Assembly (NCBI GenBank): GCA_977018835.1
Contig: OZ361260.1
Location: 3,658,001 to 3,722,000, forward strand
Length of the DNA: 64,000 nucleotides
Source: Minutocellus sp. GHC0000111
Taxonomy: Eukaryota
Reading direction: 5' to 3'
Notes under the pieces: generated by a model
Seen by the model: the letters and a program-made list of their open reading frames with translations, nothing else
The model's database searches: none
Told to the model about the DNA's origin: nothing
Shown here: positions 2,602 through 64,000 of the stretch, piece after piece
How the letters are laid out: every line of letters starts with the position of its first letter
Numbering within the stretch: position 1 is the stretch's first letter
Made by a program: the position numbers and the translations under genes

Positions 2602-5600
2602 CTATCTGTAGCTGCTAACGGCACCAACCTCGAAGTATCCCTCGATGCGAAGGCCACCACCCTTGGCCTGCTGATAAAGCATTTGTCTTGATACCTCCAT
2701 CATAATACCGTCGTCGTTCTCATACACAAAGGGACAGCATCCAAAGCTGTTGAGATCATCTTCCGATGCGCAGCTGCCACTTTCCAGAGCGGCGGCGTGC
2801 GCTACGATTCGTTGTCCATATTGGTCGCGACAGTGAAGGAATATTTCCATGTTTCGCAGGACGAGATCGGCAGTGATGTCGCCTATGCGCAACTCTACGC
2901 CCGCTCGCGGACCCTGCAGATGCAAGCGTAGGAAGAATCCATGTCCATAGCCCATCTCAACGGGGCTAGACAGACTTCGAAAGTCATCGTTGCTCATAAA
3001 GTGTCGAGCGCCAACTCGCCAACTGAACGAAACAGGATCCCAGCTCCTTATTTGGTCGATGGCGTCAGGCGTGATCTCGATATCTACTACTTCTTCTTCA
3101 TATTCTTCATATTCGTCTTCTTCATATTCGTCTTCTTCATAGACTTCGTCGTTAGCACCCCCGGAACTAGCATCGGGATCGGATTAAATGTTCATGCCTT
3201 GATCTATTGGTGTCGCACTTTGCTGTCGCTGTGTTGCCTGTTGTGCATCCTTTTCTTCGGCAGCTGCTAATTCAGCGTCAAGGCGTTCTGCCTCGCGCCG
3301 TTCCGCTGCCAGCCTCTGAGAAATTTGTGCTGCGCTAGGATCTTCTGCTGGAAGAGCAGCCTCGGGCGGTTCCTCTTTTCCAAATGGATCTACAAAGTCG
3401 GCAACTTCTTCCATCGTTGGTGGCGGTGCGGCAAAAAAGGCGAACGGATCCTCCGATTTGGCATCTTGGGCTGCAGGTGGCGTGTTTGATGCTGGCATCG
3501 TTTGTGATTCTGATGCCGATACCCCAAGCCCCGGTGACGGTGGCGTCGCTCCAAATGGATTTGCAGATTGGGCTGTGTCGCCAGAGGGTGTCGCAGGTGT
3601 TTTCGGTGGCCCCCCAAATGGATTGGACGCAGCAGTAGGTGAGGGGGATCCGAAGGGACTGGAAGACTTTACTTCCGGTCCGTCGCTTGCTTTCGGAGCA
3701 ACACCGAAAGGATTCGATGCTGGCGAACCGAAGGGACTCGATGGTTTCGGCGGTGCAGAACCATCATCGGTTTTGGTATCCACAGGTGGAGGTATCGATG
3801 ATGCTGATGAAAACGGGTTGGCCGGAGGAGAATCTGCCTTCTTCGCAAAGGGGTTTGCTGTTGCCGCTGTAGATGGCCCGGCTCCGATGAGCGAGGCAGT
3901 GGTCTTTTCCGCCTCGGTGGTATCGCCCGTTTTACCAACAGGCTTTGCAGCGGCGAATGAATTGGCCAGAGAATCTGCCCGATTCCCAAAAAGACTTGCC
4001 GTTGCGCTCGCAGGAGGTCCGGCTCCGAAGGGCAGAGTGCTTTTCTTGTCCGTCTCGGCAGTTTCGGCTGCACCTGTAGAAGGTTCAGCTCAAAAGGGCG
4101 AAGCAACCTTCTTCGCTTCCGCATCTTTGCCCCCTTCATCTGCAGAACTGTCGACTGGCTTCTTAGCGAACGGGTTGGCAGGAGGAGAATCTACCTTCTT
4201 TGCTGCGAACGGGTTCACCGCTGCGCCTGCAGGAGGAGCTGCCCCAAAAGGTGACGCCGTCTTCTTCACATCGGCAGTACTGCCCGTAGTATCATCCTCG
4301 GCGTCGTCTGAATCATCGCCAGACTCCGAGGGCTTCTTAGCGAACGGGTTGGCAGGAGGAGAATCTACCTTCTTTGCTGCGAACGGGTTCACCGCTGCGC
4401 CTGCAGGAGGAGCTGCCCCAAAAGGTGACGCCGTCTTCTTCACATCGGCAGTACTGCCCGTAGTATCATCCTCGGCGTCGTCCGAGTCGTTGTCCGTATC
4501 TTCTTTATTCTGAACAAAAGGATTGTTCCCATCAGACGAAGGAGAAGCAAATGGGTTCATTGGCGAAGCACCAGAAGTCTCAGCACCAATATTCTTCGAG
4601 GCAGAGGGATTGCTGGGTGCATCCTCCTTCTTCTTCGTAAAAGGATTTGATACCGGAGTGGACGATGCGAAAGGATTTGTCAGTGGTGCACTTGTTTCTT
4701 CTGCGCTTTGGGAGGCAAGAATCTTGGCCTTCACCTTTTCGGCCTCGAGTTTTACCTGCCGTGCCTTTTCTTCAGTAGCCTTCAATTCTGCCACAATGCG
4801 ATCATCCTTGGCCGCTTCCTCTGCATCATCAATCTTCTCCTCGTCATTGCCATCTTCACCACCAACGCCGGATTCGCTGTTTTGGTTATCTGACTCCATT
4901 GATGCCTCAGAATCTTTGGTATCTTTTACATTCTCAACCCCCGCCTCCTTTTCAGTATCAACATCATCAGCTTTTGAGTCAAGAGAAGGCTTTGAGGCAA
5001 AAGGATTGAAGCTACTTTTCGATGCACCACCATTTCCACCACCACCGAACGGATTCGTGCCGGCAAATGGATTGCTGCTGCTTCCCTCATTCTTTGCAAA
5101 AGGGTTGCTACTGGTATTGCCACCAGCTCCAGGGCCACTGCTTCCCGGAGCTTTGTTGAAGGGATTGTTGCTGCCGGCAGATTTCTTTTCAGTTGCAAAT
5201 GGATTGCTGAAGCTGCTGCTACTGCTGCTGTCGGCGGTACTGGAGGAGGTACCTGTCGGTTCTTTCGTTGCAAATGGATTGCTCATTCCACCCTGGCTGT
5301 TCTGGAGAAATCCAAGTCCAATCTTGGCGGCAACACCGACAGCTGCTGCATCTGGTGTGGCTGAAGCCGACGAATCGGACGGTGATGCAATATCTGACTC
5401 CTCATCGTCGTTCTCTTGCTCTTGCTCTTCCTCGTCATCATCGCCCAACATTTCTGCTGCAGCAAAAGCCTCGTCTTCATCATCGTCGTTGTTGTCTGAA
5501 GTAGAGGAAAGTGATGCCTGAACGTTCGCAGCGTCGGTATCATCCCCGCCATCTGCAGCATCACTTCCATCGGCACCACCACCGCCATCCAACAACAGAT

Positions 5601-52443: not shown

Positions 52444-54474
52444 TTACTGTGTTGTCTTTTGTTTCTTTCCTCGAGATGGGGATCCTTGTGAAGCTCCTTT
52501 TCGGACCGATTTCTTCCCTTCCATCCGATTATTTGTACCCGAGGTCTTGACCGCCTTGAGTACCTTCTTGACTCCAGAAGTGATGCCCACGGTCTTCATA
52601 TCATCCTCGCTCATAAATCGCACCTCTCGACCATCAGACGTAAATGCACTGGCATTAGCCAGAGTCCCAGAATCATCTTCTACAACCTCACCATACTCAA
52701 TATGATACGTGTGTCGTACGTGGCTGAAAATATGCTCAATCGAATCGCGGATATTGGTTCGATCTAAAACAAGAGAAGACTCGATCTTGCATAAGAACGA
52801 GTCTAGCGCATCCTTTCGTATCGTTGGATCAATGGTAGGAATGTCTGTTTGCTGCTTTTCGTTCTTCTTCTTGGTTTTTCTCGGCGACGACGCACCCTTC
52901 TTCTTTTCCTTTTTAGCATCAGCGCTGTTCCATACACAGCATGAAGGGAATTCCCACTGATTGGCGAGCAGACCCGATTTCGGTCTCTTGACCATGAGCC
53001 ACTTCTCAACCTTGCCATTGGCATCTTCGTCGGCCATTACGCACCGCAGAGCTGCCAGAGCTAATACCTCCTCCCGCTTCGCTTTCTTAGGAGGTGCGGT
53101 AGGGAACGCAGCATGTCCCATCGTTGCCGATAAGTCGTCACTGCGTTTTTCGCCTGACTCCAAAGCTTGAGAGATATCAAAGAGAACCGTCGATATGCCC
53201 TCGGGATCACAGAGTTTGCAACCCTCCTTGCCCCGAGCTACATTGGTCACCGAAACAAATTCGTCGATATCCATCGACTCCGTCCCTTGCAATCTATTTG
53301 CCATTTCTATACCGATTCTAGTAGACCGATAAAACTCCTTCAGCGGATCTCGATCGTCTATGCCGCTCCCATTCGGTGCGCAGTACGTGGCTCCCAATTC
53401 CATCAATGCCTGGTTGACTTCGCCGGCGTGCTGTCCATCACCAGCCTCGACAATCTGCTGCGCCAGGTCCCACCCCAGCTTGTCCTTGAAGATGGGTGCC
53501 TTGATGTGATTGGCTACGCAAGTAAGGCGAGCCAAAACTCGACAGACATTTCCATCGACGACGGGAACACACTGGTCATGTGCGATGCTGGAAATGGCAC
53601 TGGCCGTATACCGACCAATGCCATCAATGGTCATCAATTCGTCGACCGTCTTGGGAAGTTCCCCGTCGTACTTGTCCACGATCATCTTGGCACCGGAGTG
53701 CAGCATCCTGGCTCGACGGTAAAACCCCAACCCTGCCCAATGGGAGTTGACCTGTTCCTCGGTGGCGTTGGCCAGATCGTGGACAGTGGGGAAGGACTGC
53801 ATCCACTTGGCGTAGTACGGGATGACGGCTTCGACGCGGGTTTGCTGCAACATAATTTCCGATACCCAGGTGCCGTATGCCGAAATTTGTTGTGGTGGCA
53901 GTTCTTCATCTTGCTCCTGCTTTGTTGTAGTCGAGACTGTTTTTGTGCCAGCCTTGGCGGCAAAGAATCTGCTGATCGTGGGCTGCTTTTCTTCCTTGAC
54001 GTCCTTCTTCTTTGCTGCCTGCTTCTTGCTGCCATTTGCCGACTTGCCATTTCCAACATATTTTATACCGGCAGTGCTGCCATCGTACGGCGGTGGGTCG
54101 CCCCGCCAGGGCAATTTGCGTCGATTGGGACGGTACCAGTCCAGCAGGGCCTGGCGAATTTCAGCGGCATCCGACGGGGAGAGATGGTGGTAGTCCACGG
54201 AAGTATGCGTCGCAAACCGATCCAGTTCACTCATTGAGTCGCTCATTTTGGTTGCATGAACAGCCTGATGATAACAACGAGGTGGCGGAGATGTGCTCAA
54301 ACTCGAGAAGGCCTGGACAGCGAGCCGGCGATGCAAGATGCTGCCGCCGCTGCGACTACTAGCAAGGCCACCCGTACACGCAAGACCCGCTAGCCCTATC
54401 GTTATGCTGGCCGCACGGAGCAGCGGTCCTGGAGCGAGCGAGCCGGCATCGCCCTTGCTCCGCGAGCCGGCCAT
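52444..54474 (-). CDS. MUTYH: A/G-specific adenine DNA glycosylase (MutY/MUTYH), [4Fe-4S] motif degenerate; alternative start 54246
   Basis: RRKLPWR, VSEIMLQQTRV, WAGLGFYRRA, GIGRYTASAI, VDGNVCRVLAR, NQALMELGA, GLLANQWEFP and HIFSH motifs. Confidence 0.92.
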   Translation of the reverse strand: MAGSRSKGDAGSLAPGPLLRAASITIGLAGLACTGGLASSRSGGSILHRRLAVQAFSSLSTSPPPRCYHQAVHATKMSDSMSELDRFATHTSVDYHHLSPSDAAEIRQALLDWYRPNRRKLPWRGDPPPYDGSTAGIKYVGNGKSANGSKKQAAKKKDVKEEKQPTISRFFAAKAGTKTVSTTTKQEQDEELPPQQISAYGTWVSEIMLQQTRVEAVIPYYAKWMQSFPTVHDLANATEEQVNSHWAGLGFYRRARMLHSGAKMIVDKYDGELPKTVDELMTIDGIGRYTASAISSIAHDQCVPVVDGNVCRVLARLTCVANHIKAPIFKDKLGWDLAQQIVEAGDGQHAGEVNQALMELGATYCAPNGSGIDDRDPLKEFYRSTRIGIEMANRLQGTESMDIDEFVSVTNVARGKEGCKLCDPEGISTVLFDISQALESGEKRSDDLSATMGHAAFPTAPPKKAKREEVLALAALRCVMADEDANGKVEKWLMVKRPKSGLLANQWEFPSCCVWNSADAKKEKKKGASSPRKTKKKNEKQQTDIPTIDPTIRKDALDSFLCKIESSLVLDRTNIRDSIEHIFSHVRHTYHIEYGEVVEDDSGTLANASAFTSDGREVRFMSEDDMKTVGITSGVKKVLKAVKTSGTNNRMEGKKSVRKGASQGSPSRGKKQKTTQ

Positions 54475-54636
54475 GCCATTTTGCCGCCATCGGCCGAAAT
54501 TGTCGGTCGGACACATGACATGAATATGCTGCAAGCAAGATAGATGGCGCACCCACCTGTTCGTAAAGAGTCAGATTCCTCCCAGCCCAACGCCAAATGC
54601 CTCATTCATCTCTGCCATCGGCCATCTTTCTCAACC

Positions 54637-55187
54637 ATGAAGCTTCTCTCTACACTCGCCTCGGCGCTTCTATTCGCTGGCGCCGCCAGTTCGGTCGACT
54701 TTGACTTCTTCGACTTCGAGGGATGGTACGAAGGTGGATTCTTGAGCGTCGCTGCCGACCCACGCCCCGCTGGTTCGAGGCCGGGCCTTAACATGCTCCT
54801 CAAGTGCGAGGAGGGCGATGGTTCAACGGCAACAGCTGCGATCTGGTCATTCGTGGCCCACCTGGGTTCTCCCTCTGCCCCGACACCAGTACCGAGGGAA
54901 CCGTCTTCACAGGAAAGATCGCCGAGAACCAATTCGATGCCGACAAGGGAGTTGCCAAGTTCAGGCTACTCAAGGTCATTTGCGATGGCATGGAAATGAC
55001 GAATATTCCCATCCCCGTCTTTCCGTTTTCCATTCCCTACGAACCCACGCCCGTTTCCCTCACCATGATGCCCGGTGCGAGCAACAGACATGTCAAATCG
55101 CTCAACTTTACCATTGCCAATGAAGAAGCAGGCCAGTCCGACACTTCTCTCTTCTATAAGCTTGGTGGTGGATTCAAATCGTCGTAG
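54637..55187 (+). CDS. Small secreted protein, apparent frameshift near 54815
   Basis: Signal peptide MKLLSTLASALLFAGAASS; coding-like continuation in ORF 54804-55187. Confidence 0.5.
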
Positions 55188-55445
55188 ATGATGCACTGTC
55201 TTTAAAAATCGCCGTTGAATACTTTTTAGAGAAGAAAACTGCCGTTGAATACTTACTTTTTGGAAGGAAAAACATATTGATTCGAATTGTAATGTGGTTG
55301 CAGACCACTGTATAATATCATGATACATAGTAACTAATGATCCTATAACTACGTAACTAGAAACATCATGTAAATCTAAACGAGGATCTAAAATATACTA
55401 GACTAATGGTCACACCTCTAGGTGGATTTCGACGGTACAAGTTGC

Positions 55446-57797
55446 TCAAGGCAAGAACAGATCCGCGCCCTCAATGCCCCTGCAGCACTCGCAATCGACC
55501 AAATCGGCATGAATACCGGACCACAAGACGAAAAGAAGACATCCCTCCTCCTTTGTGTACGATTGGTGTATGCTGCCAACAGCATTATACAAAATTTGAC
55601 CTTCTCGAGTTGACCGATCAACAAATTTACCTTCCGTGCCCAAGCTTGAAATAGCGCTCATGGACAATTGCAATTGTTCCTTTGCTAGAGCCATGTCATC
55701 ATCATTGGGTTCTTCATAGAGCTTACCGGAATACGCCGACATCGACAGCTCTACACCCCGTTTAAGGTGATTAGATGACATTGAAGCACCAATGAGCCTT
55801 CGTTCCCATAGCTCTCCAACAAGAGGGACAATCAGTTCAACGCTTGGATGGGCGTGCAGCTTAAATTCAAAACCCTTGGGACAGGCGAGAAGCTGAAGCT
55901 TAAGTGGGTGTGAATTTGAGGTACCCTTGGCATTGACTTCGTTGACCAAAATGTCATCGGGAAGGGCATTCAGAAGAGCAGCAAAGTACTGGGAATCAAA
56001 TCGATCCTGTGCTTCTGAAGTTGCAAAGCATGGCGATACATCACTGGAAAGCGGAAGCGAAGAAGCGAGAGTCTCCAAAATCGCCGATGGTGATTCCGAG
56101 AACAGATCTCCGCGATTCAGCCACATGGGCGTTGATAACACAACCTTATCAAGTCCATCAAGCCAACCACGCAAATCTCCTTGGAATTCTGAATCAAGCC
56201 CGATCTTGATACTTGGAAACATGGATTCAGTCGACGGATTTCTATTCCGAGATTCCCACGGTAACAAGCTGGGGCGGTGCTTGATGGAAAGCTTGTGCAT
56301 GACGGGATGCACATGCTCGTCCTGGACAAGTTCGATTACGCAGCAACCATGCTCCTTGGCAGAATTCCAGCTAGACTTGATTGTTTCTGCAATTACCTCT
56401 GGGTTTGATGTTGAAACAACTGAGCCATTGGGATAAGAGTAGGCATCAAAGAGCTTGACATAGTCCGGCGAGCCGATATGGCATCCATCCGCTCGAACTC
56501 TTGGACCCCAAGTTTCATTTTGAACACGACCGAGACGTTTATTGACGATGATGACGACCAATACATTTTTGGCTCCGTGGTCCTTTAGAGTCGCTAATTC
56601 GTTCAAACTCATTTGAATGCCTCCATCTCCTGCTACGATGAGGGTCTTGGGGGTGCTTTCGCCGCTAATATCAGCCTTGTCAGCTGCCGAAAGAGAAGCG
56701 GCAAGACCTGAATTTATGGCATATCCCATAATACCAAGGTGCTCCGACGAAAGGAATCTCTGCCCACGTTTTGCAGCAAGGCTCGATCCCAACCAAAGTG
56801 CATTGTCACCGATATCAGCGCATATAACACTGTCTTCATCAAGGTGCTTCGCCATCACATCAAAGAACACGGCAGGATGGCAATATTCCGTGCTTTTGAC
56901 GTCCTTCGGTTCAATACATTTCCCCTGCAGAAAAGTACTGGGTGTTCCAGTCGGCTTACTTATTGATCCTCTCTTCAGTTCTGCCCAAATATCCGTGGGA
57001 GCTTCAACCTCGTGCGTCTCGCTTTGTTCGCGTGAAAGACTTATCGCCTCGAGAGAAGCCAGCCGACTGTGATGTTGAGGATCACTGCGGACCGATTCCG
57101 CTAAGCCTTGAACAACTTTTCCCAGCGATTCCTTTAGATAGCCACAGCTGAATACGGTGGACGGAGAAAAGCGCAGGGAATCACCGGCAACCAAGCGTTC
57201 ATCAATCTGAATGAGCCTTCGGATCTGTAGACCGGACTTGTTTGTCAGGAGCTCTGTCATATCGTTGAGGCATATGCCGATGATGGTATCAAAGTCTTGC
57301 AGCAAATCAACGGCCGATGGAGTACCAGCATTTCCATACACGCCCACAACACCATATGCCAGCGGATGAGCCTCATCAACGGTGCCCTTGCCGTCGAACG
57401 AAGTCAGAATCGGACAATGTAAGAGCTCGGCCAGACGTTCCACTTCCCGTCCAACCGCATGGGCTCGATATCCGCACGCAATCACCACATGTCGCTTGGA
57501 CTCCAATTCCGTTCGGAGGGCCATGGTCAAGGCATCGACCTGCAACTGTGGGGCGGGCGTCGTCACACGCGACTGGAATGCGGTGCCCAAACAAAAATGC
57601 GACCGACCGACGATGGTGTCCTGCTGCACATTGATCGGAACGGCAAGATGAGTGCATCGATTGGAAGCCAAGGACATGGTGAAGGCATTGCGCGTCAATG
57701 GCAGCAGCTGATGAATATCTGCCACAGTCTCCGACAGTGGTAGACCGGCCATGCGAAATATCGCCGCCTGATAACAACAACGTTCGATCCAACTCAA
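55446..57797 (-). CDS. Thiamine-pyrophosphate enzyme (acetolactate synthase/pyruvate oxidase family) fused to a C-terminal cupin; most of the N-terminal domain is missing
   Basis: Central domain LTSFDGKGTVDEAHPLAYGVVGVYG; ADIGDN, LGIMGYAI and AGDGGIQMSLNELAT...NKRLG TPP motif; cupin FKLHAHPSVE...GSIHQSYTKEEGCLLFVLW. Confidence 0.8.
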   Translation of the reverse strand: MSWIERCCYQAAIFRMAGLPLSETVADIHQLLPLTRNAFTMSLASNRCTHLAVPINVQQDTIVGRSHFCLGTAFQSRVTTPAPQLQVDALTMALRTELESKRHVVIACGYRAHAVGREVERLAELLHCPILTSFDGKGTVDEAHPLAYGVVGVYGNAGTPSAVDLLQDFDTIIGICLNDMTELLTNKSGLQIRRLIQIDERLVAGDSLRFSPSTVFSCGYLKESLGKVVQGLAESVRSDPQHHSRLASLEAISLSREQSETHEVEAPTDIWAELKRGSISKPTGTPSTFLQGKCIEPKDVKSTEYCHPAVFFDVMAKHLDEDSVICADIGDNALWLGSSLAAKRGQRFLSSEHLGIMGYAINSGLAASLSAADKADISGESTPKTLIVAGDGGIQMSLNELATLKDHGAKNVLVVIIVNKRLGRVQNETWGPRVRADGCHIGSPDYVKLFDAYSYPNGSVVSTSNPEVIAETIKSSWNSAKEHGCCVIELVQDEHVHPVMHKLSIKHRPSLLPWESRNRNPSTESMFPSIKIGLDSEFQGDLRGWLDGLDKVVLSTPMWLNRGDLFSESPSAILETLASSLPLSSDVSPCFATSEAQDRFDSQYFAALLNALPDDILVNEVNAKGTSNSHPLKLQLLACPKGFEFKLHAHPSVELIVPLVGELWERRLIGASMSSNHLKRGVELSMSAYSGKLYEEPNDDDMALAKEQLQLSMSAISSLGTEGKFVDRSTREGQILYNAVGSIHQSYTKEEGCLLFVLWSGIHADLVDCECCRGIEGADLFLP

Positions 57798-57801
57798 AGA
57801 T

Positions 57802-59153
57802 ATGCCCCTTATGCCACCGGCGGCACCATCGATGGCTACGTCGCTCCCGGCTGGGACAAGGTCCGTGATGCCTTCTCTAAAAATTGTGCTGACGGGCAGG
57901 AAGTTCAGGCTCAGCTGTGCATCACTCGAGGAGATGGCGAATCGCTTGTGGACCTAATGGGTGTCAACTCCTCCGTTGCTGCTGCAGCCGCTTCGGATAA
58001 GTCCCATGATGAGTACACCCTCGACACAGTCCAGCCCATCTGGTCCTGCGGCAAGAATCTCGAGGTTCTCGTCGTGGCCATCCTCGTAGATCGTGGCCTG
58101 GTTCAGTATGACGATCCCATCTGCAAGCACTGGCCTGCCTTCGCGAAGCAGGGCAAGGGGGGCAGAACTATTGCCGATCTCATGCGCCACAGCGCTGGCA
58201 TGGCCTACTTTGTCGATCCCGAGGATCCCGACAACAAGTTCAACCCGCTCACGGCCGAGGATATTGTTGCGAGAACTCCCATGCACGAGCTCATCGAGAA
58301 CTCGCCACCTCAACAATTCGGCAAAAGTAAGCGCACGTACCATACTTTATCTCGAGGATTTGTCGTGGATGGTCTTCTCAAACACGTCGATCCTCAAGGC
58401 CGAACCATTGGCCAGTTTGCCCGTGACGAGATTTTGATCCCCCTCGGCATTGACGACTCGTACTTTGTATCCCTCCCAGTTGGAGAGAGCGCAAAGGTCT
58501 CGGTCGCCAACCTCTGCCCTCCTCACCCAGCGTACTCCATGCATTTCGATTTTGGACCTGCACTCATGGGAGCCGGAACGCCCGACATGAAGTTCATCCT
58601 TCAATTTCTCAATCCAGCATCGGTCGCCAATCGCTGCCAGCTAGGTGTGAGCGGTTACAAAGATGACGATCCACAGGGAACCGGCATATACATGAATTCG
58701 GGTGGTGCTCCAGCCAGAATTGCGGAGTGCACGAGCGCATGGAGCTTTGCATCAGCTCGAGCTCTAACGAAGGTGCTATCCGTTTTTACAAACGGCGGTG
58801 TGTCGGGTGGAACGCGTATTATATCCACGGAGACGGCAAAGAAGGCTCTAGACAAGATGATATTCGAGGTTGATGAGTTCTCTAGCTTGTCCTGCGAGTT
58901 CAGCCAAGGGGGTATTGGAAATATTCATTCTCTCATGAAGGACTTTGGCTTTGTCGCTGAGGATACTGTGGCGGCATATCAGGGATGGATCGGTTGGTTT
59001 GGATATGGAGGCAGCCTCAATTTTACAAATATTGAGGAGAAGGTCACAGTGTCGTACACCATCACTGGTATGAGTGTGCGCGCTCCTGATCCTCGTGGTC
59101 TTGGAATCATGAAGGCCGTGGCGGAGGTTCTTGAGCGAGACTCACCACAATAA
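57802..59153 (+). CDS. Beta-lactamase/class C-family serine hydrolase (start uncertain)
   Basis: IDGYVAPGWDKVRDAF upstream of the listed ORF in the same frame; SxxK (WSCGK), DDPICKHWPAF, TIADLMRHSAG, YH and GWFGYGGS. The ATG at 57802 is one base out of frame. Confidence 0.8.
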
Positions 59154-59345
59154 TCTGAGCGAAGAAAATGTAGAGAAATCTTGTTGTTTGTGAAGCAAAG
59201 ACTATATAAGACTCTACACTACGTAATAGATTACATCGCGGTGGTCTCAAATTTTTTAAATACCATTTGTCTGAAGGCCCTTCCTCTATACAACAGCACT
59301 CCAAATACTGGACGTCTTTTCCTATCTACACCTCGAGGACAAAAG

Positions 59346-59861
59346 CTATTTGTACATCTCGACAAGATCTCCGCATTTAATCATGTTGCGAGCTTTCTCT
59401 CTAATCTGAGTGTTGCTCCTCTTCTTTAGCTTCGGGGAGTGTTTCTGGATCTGGACCCACTTACCATGCCCATGCTTTTTATAACCCTCCAGGAAAGCCT
59501 TGGTCTCCTCGTCAGTCCACCTCTTGCGTGGGCTTTGATAGCCAGCTCTATCACTAGGGCGTAGAACGTCGTAGTAATTTGCGTTGCGGAGAAGACGCTT
59601 CGCAAGCTTCCGCTTGTGCCCAACTGTCTTGAGGTTGTGCTTCCTACAGAGAGAACGAAGAAGGTCAACGTCGATGTCATCTTCACGATACTCAAACGCC
59701 ATTCTCGCTTCTAGGCGAAGCTTTGCCATGATACTTTTGGCTCCCTCGATGGGACCTTTGCTCTTGAAAAGGGCGGTAGCCTCCTCCATCTGCGCCAATT
59801 TGATCAGGAAGTTGTTGTCGATAGCATTGGAAAAGTCTCTCTGGAATTGTTCGGCATTCAT
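59346..59861 (-). CDS. SAP-domain + telobox-type Myb/SANT protein
   Basis: DVDLLRSLCRKHNLKTVGHKRKLAKRL (SAP pattern) and RKRWTDEETKAFLEGYKKHGHGKWVQI...RSNTQIREKARNM (TRF/TRB-like Myb; LKDKWRN is replaced by IREKARN). Confidence 0.75.
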   Translation of the reverse strand: MNAEQFQRDFSNAIDNNFLIKLAQMEEATALFKSKGPIEGAKSIMAKLRLEARMAFEYREDDIDVDLLRSLCRKHNLKTVGHKRKLAKRLLRNANYYDVLRPSDRAGYQSPRKRWTDEETKAFLEGYKKHGHGKWVQIQKHSPKLKKRSNTQIREKARNMIKCGDLVEMYK

Positions 59862-59927
59862 TTTATTTGATCCGTTTCAGTTGCAATATGAATAATTGCA
59901 GTACGTCGTAGGAATAGAAAAATGTTG

Positions 59928-60435
59928 AACTTTCGGGCGCAGCCCGAAAGTTTCGAGTCGAAAGTTTCCCCGCGAAGCGAAGCGAGCGGTGTCTCCGGCA
60001 CAAAAAACGAGAGGAACGAAAGATACCTTCGTGTTGTGGACAACGAACTGGTCTATGACTTGCCTCTTCGCGATCGATAATATCAAATCCGAGTAGGGTT
60101 AGGGTTTGACCGCAACCCTACCTCGGTCGGGATCAATTCCGATCCCATTTTGATTAGGGTTGCGGGTGGCGAACCTCAGCTGCGTTGGCTCCGATCTCGG
60201 GGGCCCGTGCGTCGCAATTGTTGGTGTCAAGCTTGCCGAATCGATTCCTTCCCAGCGTATTTCAAATCAGACAACAGCAGCTGAGCATTCAGATTCATTC
60301 CTGCTGTCCGTAGTACTGCAATTGTCTGTGGCGCCGACCATGCGATTCGAGCGGAGTCCGGAATGTGCTGCTTCATACGCACCAATTGGTAGCAGCCTTG
60401 TTTACGATGCTGGAAGCAAGGTACGTGTGTGAATT
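59928..60435 (+). ncRNA. Candidate structured non-coding RNA (family unknown) containing TTAGGG motifs; boundaries approximate
   Basis: Contiguous nested helices found by eye, e.g. 60187-60200/60347-60358, 60211-60216/60341-60346, 60220-60229/60329-60338, 60268-60274/60322-60328, 60372-60380/60425-60433; about ten G-U pairs when read on the + strand; no credible ORF. Confidence 0.55.
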
Positions 60436-60666
60436 CTTAATGTTTGAGTGAGGATGCGCCAATATTGGCCTGTAGATACATCTGCATGTGCATGAATGAC
60501 CAATTTGTAATTGGATCTCTTTGTGTTCATGCCTGTCCTGAAGCTTTTGATGAAGCATGAATTATTTTTATGTGCATAACAATGTTCTGTGAGCATGCCG
60601 CATTTGCGCACATGTATAAATTCATGTATGTAATATTGCATCGAATTCTCTAATGGAGCGCATATT

Positions 60667-63169
60667 TTATTGATTCAACCTTTCCATCGCTTTAGAATAC
60701 TTGCCATACCGCTTTCCAAGTCCAGTAACCATGGACTTAGCCCTGGCGCCCGCAACAGTAATCTTTTCGGCTCCTGCAGCTACTGCCTCCTCTTCCAATT
60801 GTCGCATCTTTTGCATTACGGCTTTCTCGATATCTTTTGTGATCTTGGCAATGTTTGCCTCTTGGGTTACATTTCCTGCTTCTGGCTTCCGACGGAGGGC
60901 TTCTTTCTGGGCGTCTGTCCAGACCGCATCAACGAGGAGGAGGCAGTGCTGCATGACCACTTGGTTCGCCTCCGATATGAATGGGATTTTTGGCTTGTCC
61001 TTCTTGCCAAAGTCGGTCAATGGAACGCCGGTAGACAAGAGGCCTCTCTCAAACATGCGGGTCAAGGCATCAGCAAGAGTGATGCCGGCGTCACTTGCAG
61101 TAGTATCCTGCATCGCCTTGGTGCCATACTTCACCATTTCTTGGCAGCGGTTCTTGCATTTTGGAAGAAGGATGCTCTGGCACTGTTGCTTGTAGGTGGC
61201 ACCGCGGGCGCCTCATCTGATGCTGTGACACCAATAGCGGCAGCGGCGGCTGCAGTTGGCACAGCAGCGAGGGTGGGAATATTGGTGGAGGAATTATTGT
61301 TCGGAATGGCATCGGGCACAGGTGCATTAGGGCCGGAGCTGCTGCTACCGGTAGAAATGCGCCGGCGCTTGTTTCCGCTACTAGTGCCGGTCGATGATGA
61401 TGGAGATGATGAAGCCCTCGCTGGAGGTACTTGGAGGCTTAATTTGGTCATAATGGCGGTGAGCATTTGATCTCGGCGTGCATCATTGGCATCCCGGTTG
61501 CGGTCTCGTTCGTCTCGGAGGGAAAGCTCTCTGTGCAGGCTGTCTCTGATCTGGTTCGACTGAGACAGTTCAGCCTCGAGTTGTTGGACACGCTGCATCA
61601 TGCGATTCGCCAATCGATTGCTGGTTGCTACGCTCCTACACACATGGTCCATATCGGCTCGTCCGTCTTGATTCGACGGTGATTGAGGAAAATTATCCAA
61701 TTCGAACCTCTTCTTGATGCGATCGGACCAATCCTTGAATTCTTCGGCGGACACACCAGCAACCTCAGCAGCAGTGTTAACCTTTTCGATGATAATGTGT
61801 TACCATCGGGATAGTCGGCCTCCATTTGTGGATGATACATGATAATGGAGGCAAGGGCTGTTTGGACTAGCATGGTGAGGCGACCATGGGAACGGAGTTC
61901 GTCGAGCTCCGGTGCGACATAAAATAGACTCTGGATAAACAATCTAACCCTGTGGACATTTTCAGCACCAAGGGGATCAAGAGTTGGTGGATGTACCATT
62001 TCTTCTGGGTTGGGCCAGTCAGCAATGGCACGGGCAGGCACCATGGTGAGGGCGGGAACAGACATAACGTAATGCTCGGTAGAATCAGGCCGAGCGTGGC
62101 CAGAAAGCATCGTGTGCATGTCTCCAATAACAAAGCGGTTGCCTGCAAGGACTGTATTAAATCCTTTACGTATACTTTTGGCACTGGTCCATTTCTTGCA
62201 TTTCTCGTCTGAAAGCTTCTTCACCACAGAAGTAACTTTCCTCGTAACAGCCTCGTTTGGCATAGATTGTAGAGATGGGAAAATGCATTTGATTCGGGGA
62301 TCCTTTGAGTTGGGACGACGGAGACCACCTTCAATTACAAAGCACCCAAATGCATGGTAGATATCAGTGGCATAGTACTCAGGATCACTGACAAAGGGCA
62401 CATCCTTTTGGGTTAGCTGCTTGACCTGGGTCCACACACCGGTAAGGCATTTGAAATATTCATCCCACGCCATTTTGTTGTACTTAAGATGCTTCGGCTC
62501 TCCTCCTCGTCCGCCGGCAAGGTAGAGAGTGACAAGGATGAATCGCCACTCAAATGGATTGTTCAAAAAAGTTGCAGTACCACTGATGAGCTTCTTCATC
62601 ATGCTCACGAGATCTCTACCCTCAAGGTCCTTCCAATATCCATCCCACGACATGCCGTCTACTTCTTGCCTCTGAGTTAGATGAAGATAGTCTGGCTTGA
62701 GCTTTTTCACGATGGCACGAGTGTCGAGATCTTTTTCGTTGGCATCGTCATCGAGCAAACGACGGCCGACTCCGGTCAGGAGACGCTTCCGCATATCGGT
62801 GTACCAGAGCCTCTCGTGGTCGACCCATATCTTGAGAGTCGGGTGCTTCTCTTTTATAATCTCCTTCACTTGGCCGAAGTACTGAGCAAGCGTGTCAGTG
62901 GCGGTTGACACAGTAGGGTTCGACTTATTTTTGATATCCTCTTCAATCAAATACGTCTGCAGCCCGATGAGCTCGACCGTCACAGTCTCTCCTTTCAAGT
63001 CGTTCTCGTCTTCCTTTCCGTTGTGGCTTTCCATCTCGAGCACGAAGGCCGAGTAAGTCTCATCGCTCTTCTCCTTGTAATCGAGGTACATCTGCCAGGC
63101 GTTTTTCCGCCCTGCGGTAGTAGCCTCTGCTTGGCCAATAACTGCCGCCGGAGCGCTCGTATCCGTCAT
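60667..63169 (-). CDS. Crypton-like tyrosine recombinase, about 830 aa, with two apparent 1-nt deletions (about 61798 and 61138)
   Basis: Catalytic order R (GGRGGE), K (QVKQ), KSIRKG (in place of HxxR), SGH and Y (STEHY), with IFPSL; ORFs 61628-63169, 61131-61754 and 60667-61137 join by adding one A at each shift; no introns and no RT. Confidence 0.75.
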
Positions 63170-63876
63170 CGTTTCCCGTCAATACAATGCAAGAAGATGG
63201 CTATATTACACGAGAAAAAATGACGAGAATCGATCGGCGGGTGGTTTGCGGTGGTGGTAGAGTCGAGCCAGTCACACCCTGATGATGAGTCGCGTCAGTC
63301 GACTATGAATACGAGGCTAGGTTACTGTACTTTATCCCGACTCGAAAGTTTGCTCTGGTGTTATGTACTCTCAACTCGAAAGTTCGTCGAAAAAGAAGAA
63401 AAAGTGAGATGGAGTGGAGTCGGTCCTTTTGCATCAAAATCGTGGAGTATTTGAATGAATCGTGGGAGGAGAATCTCCGATACTTTTTGAATTCGCAAAG
63501 AATTTAGTGAGAAGCGGCGAAACTCATACCTCTCTTAGGGTTCACCGAGCGCAGTTCATCGTAAAAGTTTGACAATAAAGTAAGGAAAAACGGAAACGGC
63601 GATGCCCTTTACATTCTACGGTTGACTCTTAGTGTTAAAAGAAGCGCTGTTATCACAGAAACTTTTGGAACTGCAGTTTGAATCATCGAATCCAGTTGAA
63701 AGAAAATCCAGGCGTAGGATTCCGATGCATCTGGATCGCATGTCAAGGCCAGCCTGCCATCTGCAGAAAACTCCTACCTCTACCGCTTCTGTGTACCGGT
63801 AAACTGTCGTTTCTCTCTCCAGTCGAGTCTCTATTTCAATATCCTTCATTCAACAGGTTTTCCCTAATTCTCAACC

Positions 63877-63999
63877 TTACGAGAACTTTCCAAGAATGTC
63901 ATCCTCACGGTAAAGGTACATCTCATCGCCATCTACCTCAATCTTGGAGCCACCGTACTCGGGAAGGAGGACAGCATCGCCAGCCTTGAGAGTAGGTGT
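63877..63999 (-). CDS. HSP10: 10 kDa chaperonin (Cpn10/Hsp10/GroES), 3' part only
   Basis: Manual translation TPTLKAGDAVLLPEYGGSKIEVDGDEMYLYREDDILGKFS* (absent from the ORF track); runs off the window end. Confidence 0.9.
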   Translation of the reverse strand, partial: TPTLKAGDAVLLPEYGGSKIEVDGDEMYLYREDDILGKFS

Positions 64000-64000
64000 A

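What the first reader, a model, noticed from the sequence alone, without database searches (positions are those of the whole stretch)
59346..63542. Three-part module: Crypton-like tyrosine recombinase + structured RNA-like spacer with telomeric motifs + SAP/telobox-Myb gene
Seen: an intronless YR gene (60667-63169, -) and a small SAP-Myb gene (59346-59861, -) flank about 500 nt of dense base-pairing that carries TAGGGTTAGGGTT (60094-60106), AACCCTA (60114-60120) and TTAGGGTT (60154-60161). Both genes have the same upstream motifs. Known: Cryptons are YR-only DNA transposons found in stramenopiles, and telobox Myb domains bind double-stranded TTAGGG-type repeats. I know of no Crypton described with a structured RNA or a TRF-like cargo. 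Inference: this may be one mobile system in which an RNA and/or a telomere-repeat-binding protein guides, regulates or targets the recombinase.
Basis: partly seen in the sequence, partly recalled or inferred. Interest (0 to 1): 0.88.

Follow-up and report, generated by a model that had tools for sequence, protein, structure and literature searches.

The report
Crypton transposon with backwards spliced RNA
A broken 3.5-kb recombinase-type jumping gene has landed just upstream of an ordinary host gene in what is likely a diatom; the host gene is not part of it, but the element has conserved hairpin ends, likely moves as a DNA circle, and likely makes a spliced RNA running backwards into its own recombinase gene.

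Summary
The three-part module is not one unit. Contigs from public DNA runs show an empty allele: the mobile unit is 59917-63403, bounded by a GAAAAA direct repeat, and the SAP-Myb gene lies outside it, beside empty sites in two studies. The unit is a Crypton-type element: Flp/Cre-like fold, further insertions, deletion derivatives; this copy has two frameshifts. The 'shared upstream motifs' are its two ends. A terminal hairpin and inverted sites recur in families at 28-43% protein identity, and one relative assembled as a full end-to-start circle or tandem. The spacer belongs to the element. Only a ~55-nt hairpin, whose arms are the telomere-like motifs, folds above chance; no insertion flank is telomeric. 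RNA contigs of two studies cover the spacer, and one low-depth contig shows a GT-AG splice antisense to the recombinase; a matching donor sits in 3 of 4 families, the fourth carrying RusA there. The scan noted Crypton hairpin ends and RusA pairing before on other DNA.

The parts
59917..63403 (-). Crypton-type YR DNA transposon, 3487 bp with both terminal repeats
   Evidence: empty-allele joints 59922>63417 (X2, X4) and 59864/59887>63417/63420 (X13); loose ends of other insertions at 59917 and 63402
59917..59922 (+). GAAAAA direct repeat, 3' end of the element (crossover core, inferred)
   Evidence: one copy at the empty site in X13 (loose end at 59887)
63398..63403 (+). GAAAAA direct repeat, 5' end of the element
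59928..59952 (.). terminal palindrome/hairpin, 11-bp arms and 3-nt loop
   Evidence: same loop and paired arm changes in L001 and L005
59927..59935 (+). sub-terminal 9-bp site, inverted repeat of 63377-63385
63343..63385 (+). two CGAAAGTT sites at the 5' end; likely recombinase-binding sites
   Evidence: function inferred
60667..63169 (-). tyrosine recombinase gene, broken by frameshifts near 61800 and 61200; R221, K250, R334, H358, Y367 present
   Evidence: intact 838-aa relative P0002 at 88%
60056..60420 (+). likely exon 1 of a transcript antisense to the YR gene
   Evidence: RNA contigs of X6 and X8 begin at 60056 and 60059; one X8 contig leaves at 60420
60421..60695 (+). likely 275-nt GT-AG intron of that transcript
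   Evidence: 14 loose letters of the X8 contig equal 60696-60709, unique in the window; consensus donor, branch and acceptor
60110..60165 (.). hairpin whose outer arms are AACCCTA/TAGGGTT; shared with another locus or family
   Evidence: contigs matching only 60108-60162 or 60114-60165 in X1, X2, X4, X13
60094..60106 (+). two-unit telomere-like repeat; alternative partner of the AACCCTA arm
   Evidence: 5 kcal/mol less stable fold; broken at 60099 in the X13 copy
59346..59861 (-). host gene, TRF-like Myb with weak SAP; outside the element, start codon 55 nt from its end

Best explanation
59917-63403 is a frameshifted copy of a Crypton-type DNA transposon inserted at a GAAAAA site 55 nt upstream of a host SAP-Myb gene, and it likely moves by tyrosine-recombinase excision as a circle and reinsertion at short A-tracts, while a likely spliced, non-coding RNA read from its 3' end into the recombinase gene would damp its own expression. 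Shown: ends, empty site, other insertions, deletion derivatives, YR fold, conserved end motifs, one end-to-start contig in a relative. Inferred: the recombinase binds the repeated CGAAAG sites, joins the two ends with inverted sites about 40 bp apart overall, and crosses over in the A-tract; this copy needs enzyme from intact copies; the antisense RNA acts by convergent transcription or double-stranded RNA. The telomere-like motifs are arms of a hairpin near the RNA's apparent 5' end; a role for the Myb protein is not shown.
For: Empty allele with one GAAAAA; contig depth inside the YR about half of the flanks in X2 (64 v 133) and X4 (110 v 242), fitting a one-allele insertion though depth is no copy number. 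Model pLDDT 92.9; Flp Z 15.1, rmsd 4.0, 243 aligned, Cre Z 13-14; R221 117/118, K250 119/119, R334 114/118, H/W358 109/118, Y367 118/119. 1227 relatives at E<=0.001; nearest Atlas clusters oomycete and diatom. L001 overlaps itself by 123 nt (3473-bp unit), and L003 holds the same 5' end in host DNA, identity starting at the T-tract. Inverted sites round the joined ends: inner distance 22, 22, 19 in three families. Splice evidence; the strict donor AGGTAHGT occurs 3 times in 128 kb of window strands, one being this one, and once each on the antisense strand just behind the YR stop in L001 and L006.
Against: The splice rests on one contig of depth 3 with 14 loose letters; contigs give no strand, start or level, and only 2 of 7 RNA runs were laid. 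An X6 contig runs unspliced through a deletion derivative, so RNA of the other strand or DNA is possible. L001 may be a head-to-tail tandem, not a circle. The L005+L004 geometry joins ends of two contigs 98.5% alike. L006 is degraded and its donor may lie in host DNA; L004/L005 have no such donor. The spliced form would open a ~260-codon antisense frame from an ATG at 60407, with no TTA/CTA/TCA among 20 Leu/Ser codons of the C-terminal piece, so coding is not excluded (no Pfam hit; frame short in L001, L005, L006). X1-X5 may be the window's own source.
Confidence: 0.72

Rival explanations
1. Same element, but the spacer RNA is incidental: read-through or a cryptic promoter, or the decayed remains of a second convergent gene such as the RusA gene of relatives, with no function.
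For: 12 of 16 listed X13 changes at predicted paired positions break the pair and none is compensatory; exon 1 folds at only z -1.9; its apparent closing stem changes with the chosen start; spacers of window and L001 do not align and L001 has no window below z -1.9; L004/L005 carry RusA here.
Against: Donor site in 3 of 4 families; RNA contigs of two studies start within 3 nt of each other; the 55-nt hairpin is kept in otherwise unlike sequence; 6 of 6 listed X4 variants fall at unpaired positions.
Confidence: 0.3
2. The recombinase works on folded single-stranded DNA, as integron integrases do: the terminal hairpin with a GCA loop and the pairing of the joined ends would be the substrate.
For: Hairpin arms change in pairs (G-C to C-G in L005, one extra pair in L001) with a fixed 3-nt loop; C-GNA-G loops are very stable in DNA (recalled); other notes of this scan propose the same for other Cryptons (unchecked).
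Against: A palindrome bound by a protein dimer on double-stranded DNA predicts the same symmetry; the arms are perfect, with no strand-specific bulges; the crossover lies outside the hairpin; best folds are Flp/Cre (Z 13-15) ahead of integron integrase (Z 10.8).
Confidence: 0.15
3. First reader's module: YR, RNA and Myb form one mobile system aimed at or regulated through telomeric repeats.
For: 13-nt telomeric match above chance; Myb most like TRF proteins; a further TTAGGGTT at 63535 would lie about 190 nt upstream of the Myb start on the empty allele.
Against: Myb outside the element and present beside empty sites; 0 of 9 flanks telomeric; no TTAGGG or CCCTAA in 6 of 6 related loci; double repeat broken in X13.
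Confidence: 0.03
4. The spacer is a telomerase RNA gene or a captured piece of one.
For: The minus strand reads two C-rich repeats, as a template would, with a T-run at 60003-60008; PMC8287931 (passages) names a stramenopile TR only for Blastocystis, so the host TR is not known to me.
Against: It lies in a polymorphic transposon absent from other alleles; the repeat is changed in X13; splice signals point to the + strand; the piece shared with another locus excludes the double repeat; no Rfam hit at E<=5.
Confidence: 0.03

Closest known systems
CryptonS of oomycetes and a diatom (Kojima and Jurka 2011, PMC3212892; parts 1-2 of 7, passages, supplement 1 whole, supplement 4 passages)
   Same: YR-only element of about 3-4.7 kb, 5-6 bp terminal direct repeat, no GCR1_C hit, non-autonomous deletion derivatives, likely stramenopile host; YR motifs look alike by eye (CryS1_PTri in supplement 4).
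   Different: Repeat is an A-tract, not TATGG, TTACTG, TAATG or CTGTAAG; nucleotide motifs at the ends are conserved across families at 28-43% protein identity, whereas that paper found none among Cryptons; first His of the HxxR box is K/R here; convergent antisense RNA or RusA gene; end-to-start contig.
CryptonF-1_cRei of Chlamydomonas (PMC9977147, passages)
   Same: Clean empty sites with one copy of the core; insertions near gene starts.
   Different: Core CAYCG; CryptonF group; no hairpin or antisense RNA in the passages read.
Starships (bioRxiv 10.64898/2026.09.21.753150, abstract start and passages)
   Same: YR-mobilised eukaryotic element with a circular intermediate seen as end-to-start junctions.
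   Different: Giant fungal cargo elements; circles of Cryptons are there still called hypothesised.
Fanzor-carrying Cryptons (PMC13565253, passages)
   Same: Crypton with an RNA-related passenger.
   Different: No Fanzor ORF here, and the RNA would run inward from the end, not out into the flank.

Membership tests
Crypton (broad sense) | encodes a tyrosine recombinase with catalytic R-K-(H)-R-H/W-Y | tested here: met
   first His replaced by K/R in 104 of 118 rows
Crypton (broad sense) | no reverse transcriptase or DDE transposase in the element | tested here: met
   only the YR frames lie in 59917-63403
Crypton (broad sense) | 4-6 bp terminal direct repeat, one copy at the empty site | tested here: met
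Crypton (broad sense) | no long terminal inverted or direct repeats | tested here: met
   only 9-10 bp sub-terminal inverted sites
Crypton (broad sense) | multiple insertions / mobility | tested here: met
   other flanks and deletion derivatives; movement itself not observed
CryptonS | clusters with CryptonS YRs in a tree; shared C-terminal region | not testable with these tools
   Repbase sequences are not held; likeness to supplement 4 rows judged by eye
CryptonS | no GCR1_C domain | tested here: met
   no such Pfam hit in P0002, P0022, P0006 or the window pieces
CryptonS | TATGG termini (majority, not all) | tested here: not met
   GAAAAA here; exceptions exist in supplement 1
CryptonS | stramenopile host | tested here: inconclusive
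   Atlas neighbours oomycete/diatom; host gene style diatom-like is my recall; no genome held
Telobox (TRF-like) Myb protein | single Myb domain closest to TRF1/TRF2/Tbf1 | tested here: met
   18 of 19 PDB hits, weak E-values
Telobox (TRF-like) Myb protein | binds duplex TTAGGG | not testable with these tools
   needs a binding assay
Telomerase RNA | conserved single-copy locus with intact template | tested here: not met
   absent from empty alleles, repeat changed in X13
Guide/bridge RNA of a recombinase | RNA segments matching donor ends or targets | tested here: not met
   longest matches 6, 6, 7 and 11 nt to 4 of 4 end/flank pieces of this insertion; other flanks not tested

The most novel reading that the evidence does not exclude
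A widespread clade of A-tract Cryptons in marine protists keeps a convergent 'second slot' at its 3' end, filled by a RusA resolvase in some families and by a spliced hairpin-bearing RNA in others; the RNA is a functional part of the element (regulator or recombinase cofactor), its telomere-like hairpin recruits host TRF-like proteins, and the elements persist as abundant circles.
Probability: 0.12. Interest if true: 0.8.

Novelty: new variant of a known kind. Interest (0 to 1): 0.42.

Why it matters
A 2026 review (PMC13565253, passages) says Crypton transposition has not been shown experimentally and the circle is a model. This family offers exact ends, empty sites, intact 838-aa enzymes, conserved end sites with fixed spacing and an end-to-start contig, so the mechanism becomes directly testable, and a eukaryotic recombinase with a 5-6 bp target could be a tool. 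A spliced antisense RNA kept across families would be a built-in control not found in my searches.

Tried and rejected
Rfam: 0 hits at E<=5 in 59000-64000. Pfam on the window YR pieces: nothing above cut-off; P0022 Phage_integrase only E 0.011. PDB sequence search with the 119-row profile: low-complexity hits only. First fold with 8 rows: pLDDT 43.5, unused. YR relatives in viral and prokaryote contigs: 0 of 20 and 0 of 51 candidates. Pattern scans of viral contigs: 2 and 4 matches (L007-L012), judged chance from context and no YR by tblastn. No second copy in the window. Global fold of exon 1: rejected; an apparent lack of X13 changes in 60100-60199 was not used, because 32 rows were hidden. 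No RNA contig over 59780-60050 in X6 or X8: no conclusion on Myb expression. Atlas on the Myb protein: best 0.82, lead only. Literature: Crypton+RusA 0 papers; other searches; none of the listings or passages read showed a Crypton with a spliced antisense RNA, though PMC3522703 (passages) reports antisense small RNAs at the 3' end of P. infestans Crypton6, tied to a SINE-like piece. Subscription journals and Repbase were not searched; bioRxiv supplements were not seen. No complex was predicted since no binding is claimed.
Full report
Observation. The recombinase gene is split over three frames, with shifts near 61800 and 61200; an intact 838-aa relative is 88% identical over the first 455 residues, and a contig of run X2 repeats 60492-62718 without a difference, so this copy is really broken. 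The 13-nt telomere-like string is above chance (0 of 100 shuffles). The spacer as a whole folds barely better than shuffles; the signal is one hairpin region, 60060-60179, z -3.7, not matched by 98 host windows.

Boundaries. Laying contigs of four DNA runs (4 of the 24 listed) on 54000-64000 gave joints from 59922 to 63417 in X2 and X4 and from 59864/59887 to 63417/63420 in X13, a different study. The X13 loose end shows a single GAAAAA followed by the right flank. Both ends of the filled site carry GAAAAA (59917-59922, 63398-63403). Other flanks join at 59917 and 63402, a derivative lacks 60521-62670, and X13 holds sequences sharing only the terminal 57 or 113 nt. Protein P0003 is another derivative whose frame runs into the same terminal 110 nt in a 69%-identical family. 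The Myb gene is on the same contigs as the neighbouring beta-lactamase-family gene, at flank depth, and next to the empty site. It is a host gene; the element landed 55 nt upstream of its start. The host is likely a diatom (Atlas neighbours; gene style, my recall); no genome was held.

The enzyme. With 119 relatives the first 455 residues fold at pLDDT 92.9 and match Flp, Cre and Xer recombinases. R221, K250, R334, H/W358 and Y367 are near-invariant. The family is large: 1227 clusters at E<=0.001.

The ends. Six metagenome loci were fetched (6 of 239 candidates). L001 (43%) is a whole 3473-bp element whose contig overlaps itself, with the 3' end joined to the 5' end through a T-tract; L003 shows that 5' end in host DNA. 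A shared core of 5-6 nt is too short for an assembler to close, so a circle or a tandem must exist (inference). Its YR has one apparent intron and no other break seen. L001 and L005 (30%) end like the window: repeated CGAAAG, then a perfect hairpin with the same 3-nt loop and paired arm changes, then the T-tract. Across the joined ends 9-10 bp inverted sites sit 22, 22 and 19 nt apart. Kojima and Jurka (PMC3212892, passages) found no conserved nucleotide sequence among Cryptons. The spacing is too wide for a Cre-like core (6-8 bp, same paper), so I infer accessory binding sites and a relaxed A-tract core.

The spacer RNA. RNA contigs of two studies (X6, X8; 2 of 7 RNA runs) cover 60056/60059 to 60521/60420. 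One X8 contig, depth 3, leaves at 60420 and goes on with 14 letters equal to 60696-60709, removing a 275-nt stretch with consensus donor, branch and acceptor on the + strand. No DNA joint of that kind was among those listed for the four DNA runs. The same strict donor lies just behind the YR stop on the antisense strand of L001 and L006, at a background of 0.023 per kb; L004/L005 lack it and carry a convergent RusA gene (Pfam E 6.6e-13); L002 and L003 lack the 3' part. So 3 of 4 testable families fit a convergent spliced transcript. Against a large folded RNA: 12 of 16 listed X13 changes at paired sites break pairs, none compensates, though 6 of 6 X4 changes avoid pairs. What is kept is the 60110-60165 hairpin, found amid unlike flanks in all four DNA runs. 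Its outer arms are two of the three telomere-like motifs, which explains their clustering. A ~260-codon antisense frame opened by the splice is not excluded but is not shared by relatives.

Telomere link. None of 9 flanks seen (two of this site, four read-derived of up to 30 letters, three in L003-L005) is telomeric, and L001-L006 hold no TTAGGG. The Myb domain is TRF-like, and the string at 60099-60107 equals the plant telo-box (recalled), so host proteins might bind it; this is untested.

Verdict. A new variant of a known kind: a Crypton in the broad sense, near CryptonS though membership by tree was not testable. Element and boundaries about 95% sure; circle about 70%; spliced antisense RNA about 70%; a regulatory role for it about 45%. 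Earlier notes of this scan describe Crypton hairpin ends and RusA pairing on other DNA; none was found for this sequence or for a spliced antisense RNA of a Crypton. Papers: PMC3212892 as stated above; PMC12130899, PMC8287931, PMC13565253, PMC3522703, PMC9977147, PMC13465315 and the Starship preprint as passages only; the rest as listings.

Noticed in passing
L005 2108-2992 and L004 (strand opposite the YR): Convergent RusA resolvase gene with a weak AT-hook inside a related YR element (Pfam E 6.6e-13).
   Followed up: partly
L001 whole contig: Full element assembled end-to-start (123-nt self-overlap, 3473-bp unit): candidate Crypton circle.
   Followed up: partly
window 60108-60165: Hairpin also present at another locus with unrelated flanks of 175-255 letters or more, and at high depth in X13; its source is unknown.
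   Followed up: partly
window 63535-63542: TTAGGGTT in host DNA that would lie about 190 nt upstream of the Myb start on the empty allele; possible self-regulation site displaced by the insertion.
   Followed up: no
window 63261-63275 and L001 about 3295-3309: A 15-nt motif upstream of the YR start is identical in both families but reversed relative to the gene.
   Followed up: no
window 59900-59922 and 63381-63403: The host target flank is 74% like the element's other end over 23 nt; not seen at the second insertion.
   Followed up: partly
window 59973-59984: Overlapping GCGAAGC units near the 3' end, also present in L005; known as very stable DNA mini-hairpins (recalled); changed in X4.
   Followed up: no
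window 63878-64000 (-): End of a host gene resembling chaperonin-10 (recalled likeness).
   Followed up: no
window 52444-59153: Host genes: MutY-like glycosylase, a TPP enzyme with a weak C-terminal cupin, and a beta-lactamase-family hydrolase.
   Followed up: no
L002 3767-4225 and L006 234-500: YR fragments interrupted by other sequence, in L006 gag-like by eye.
   Followed up: no
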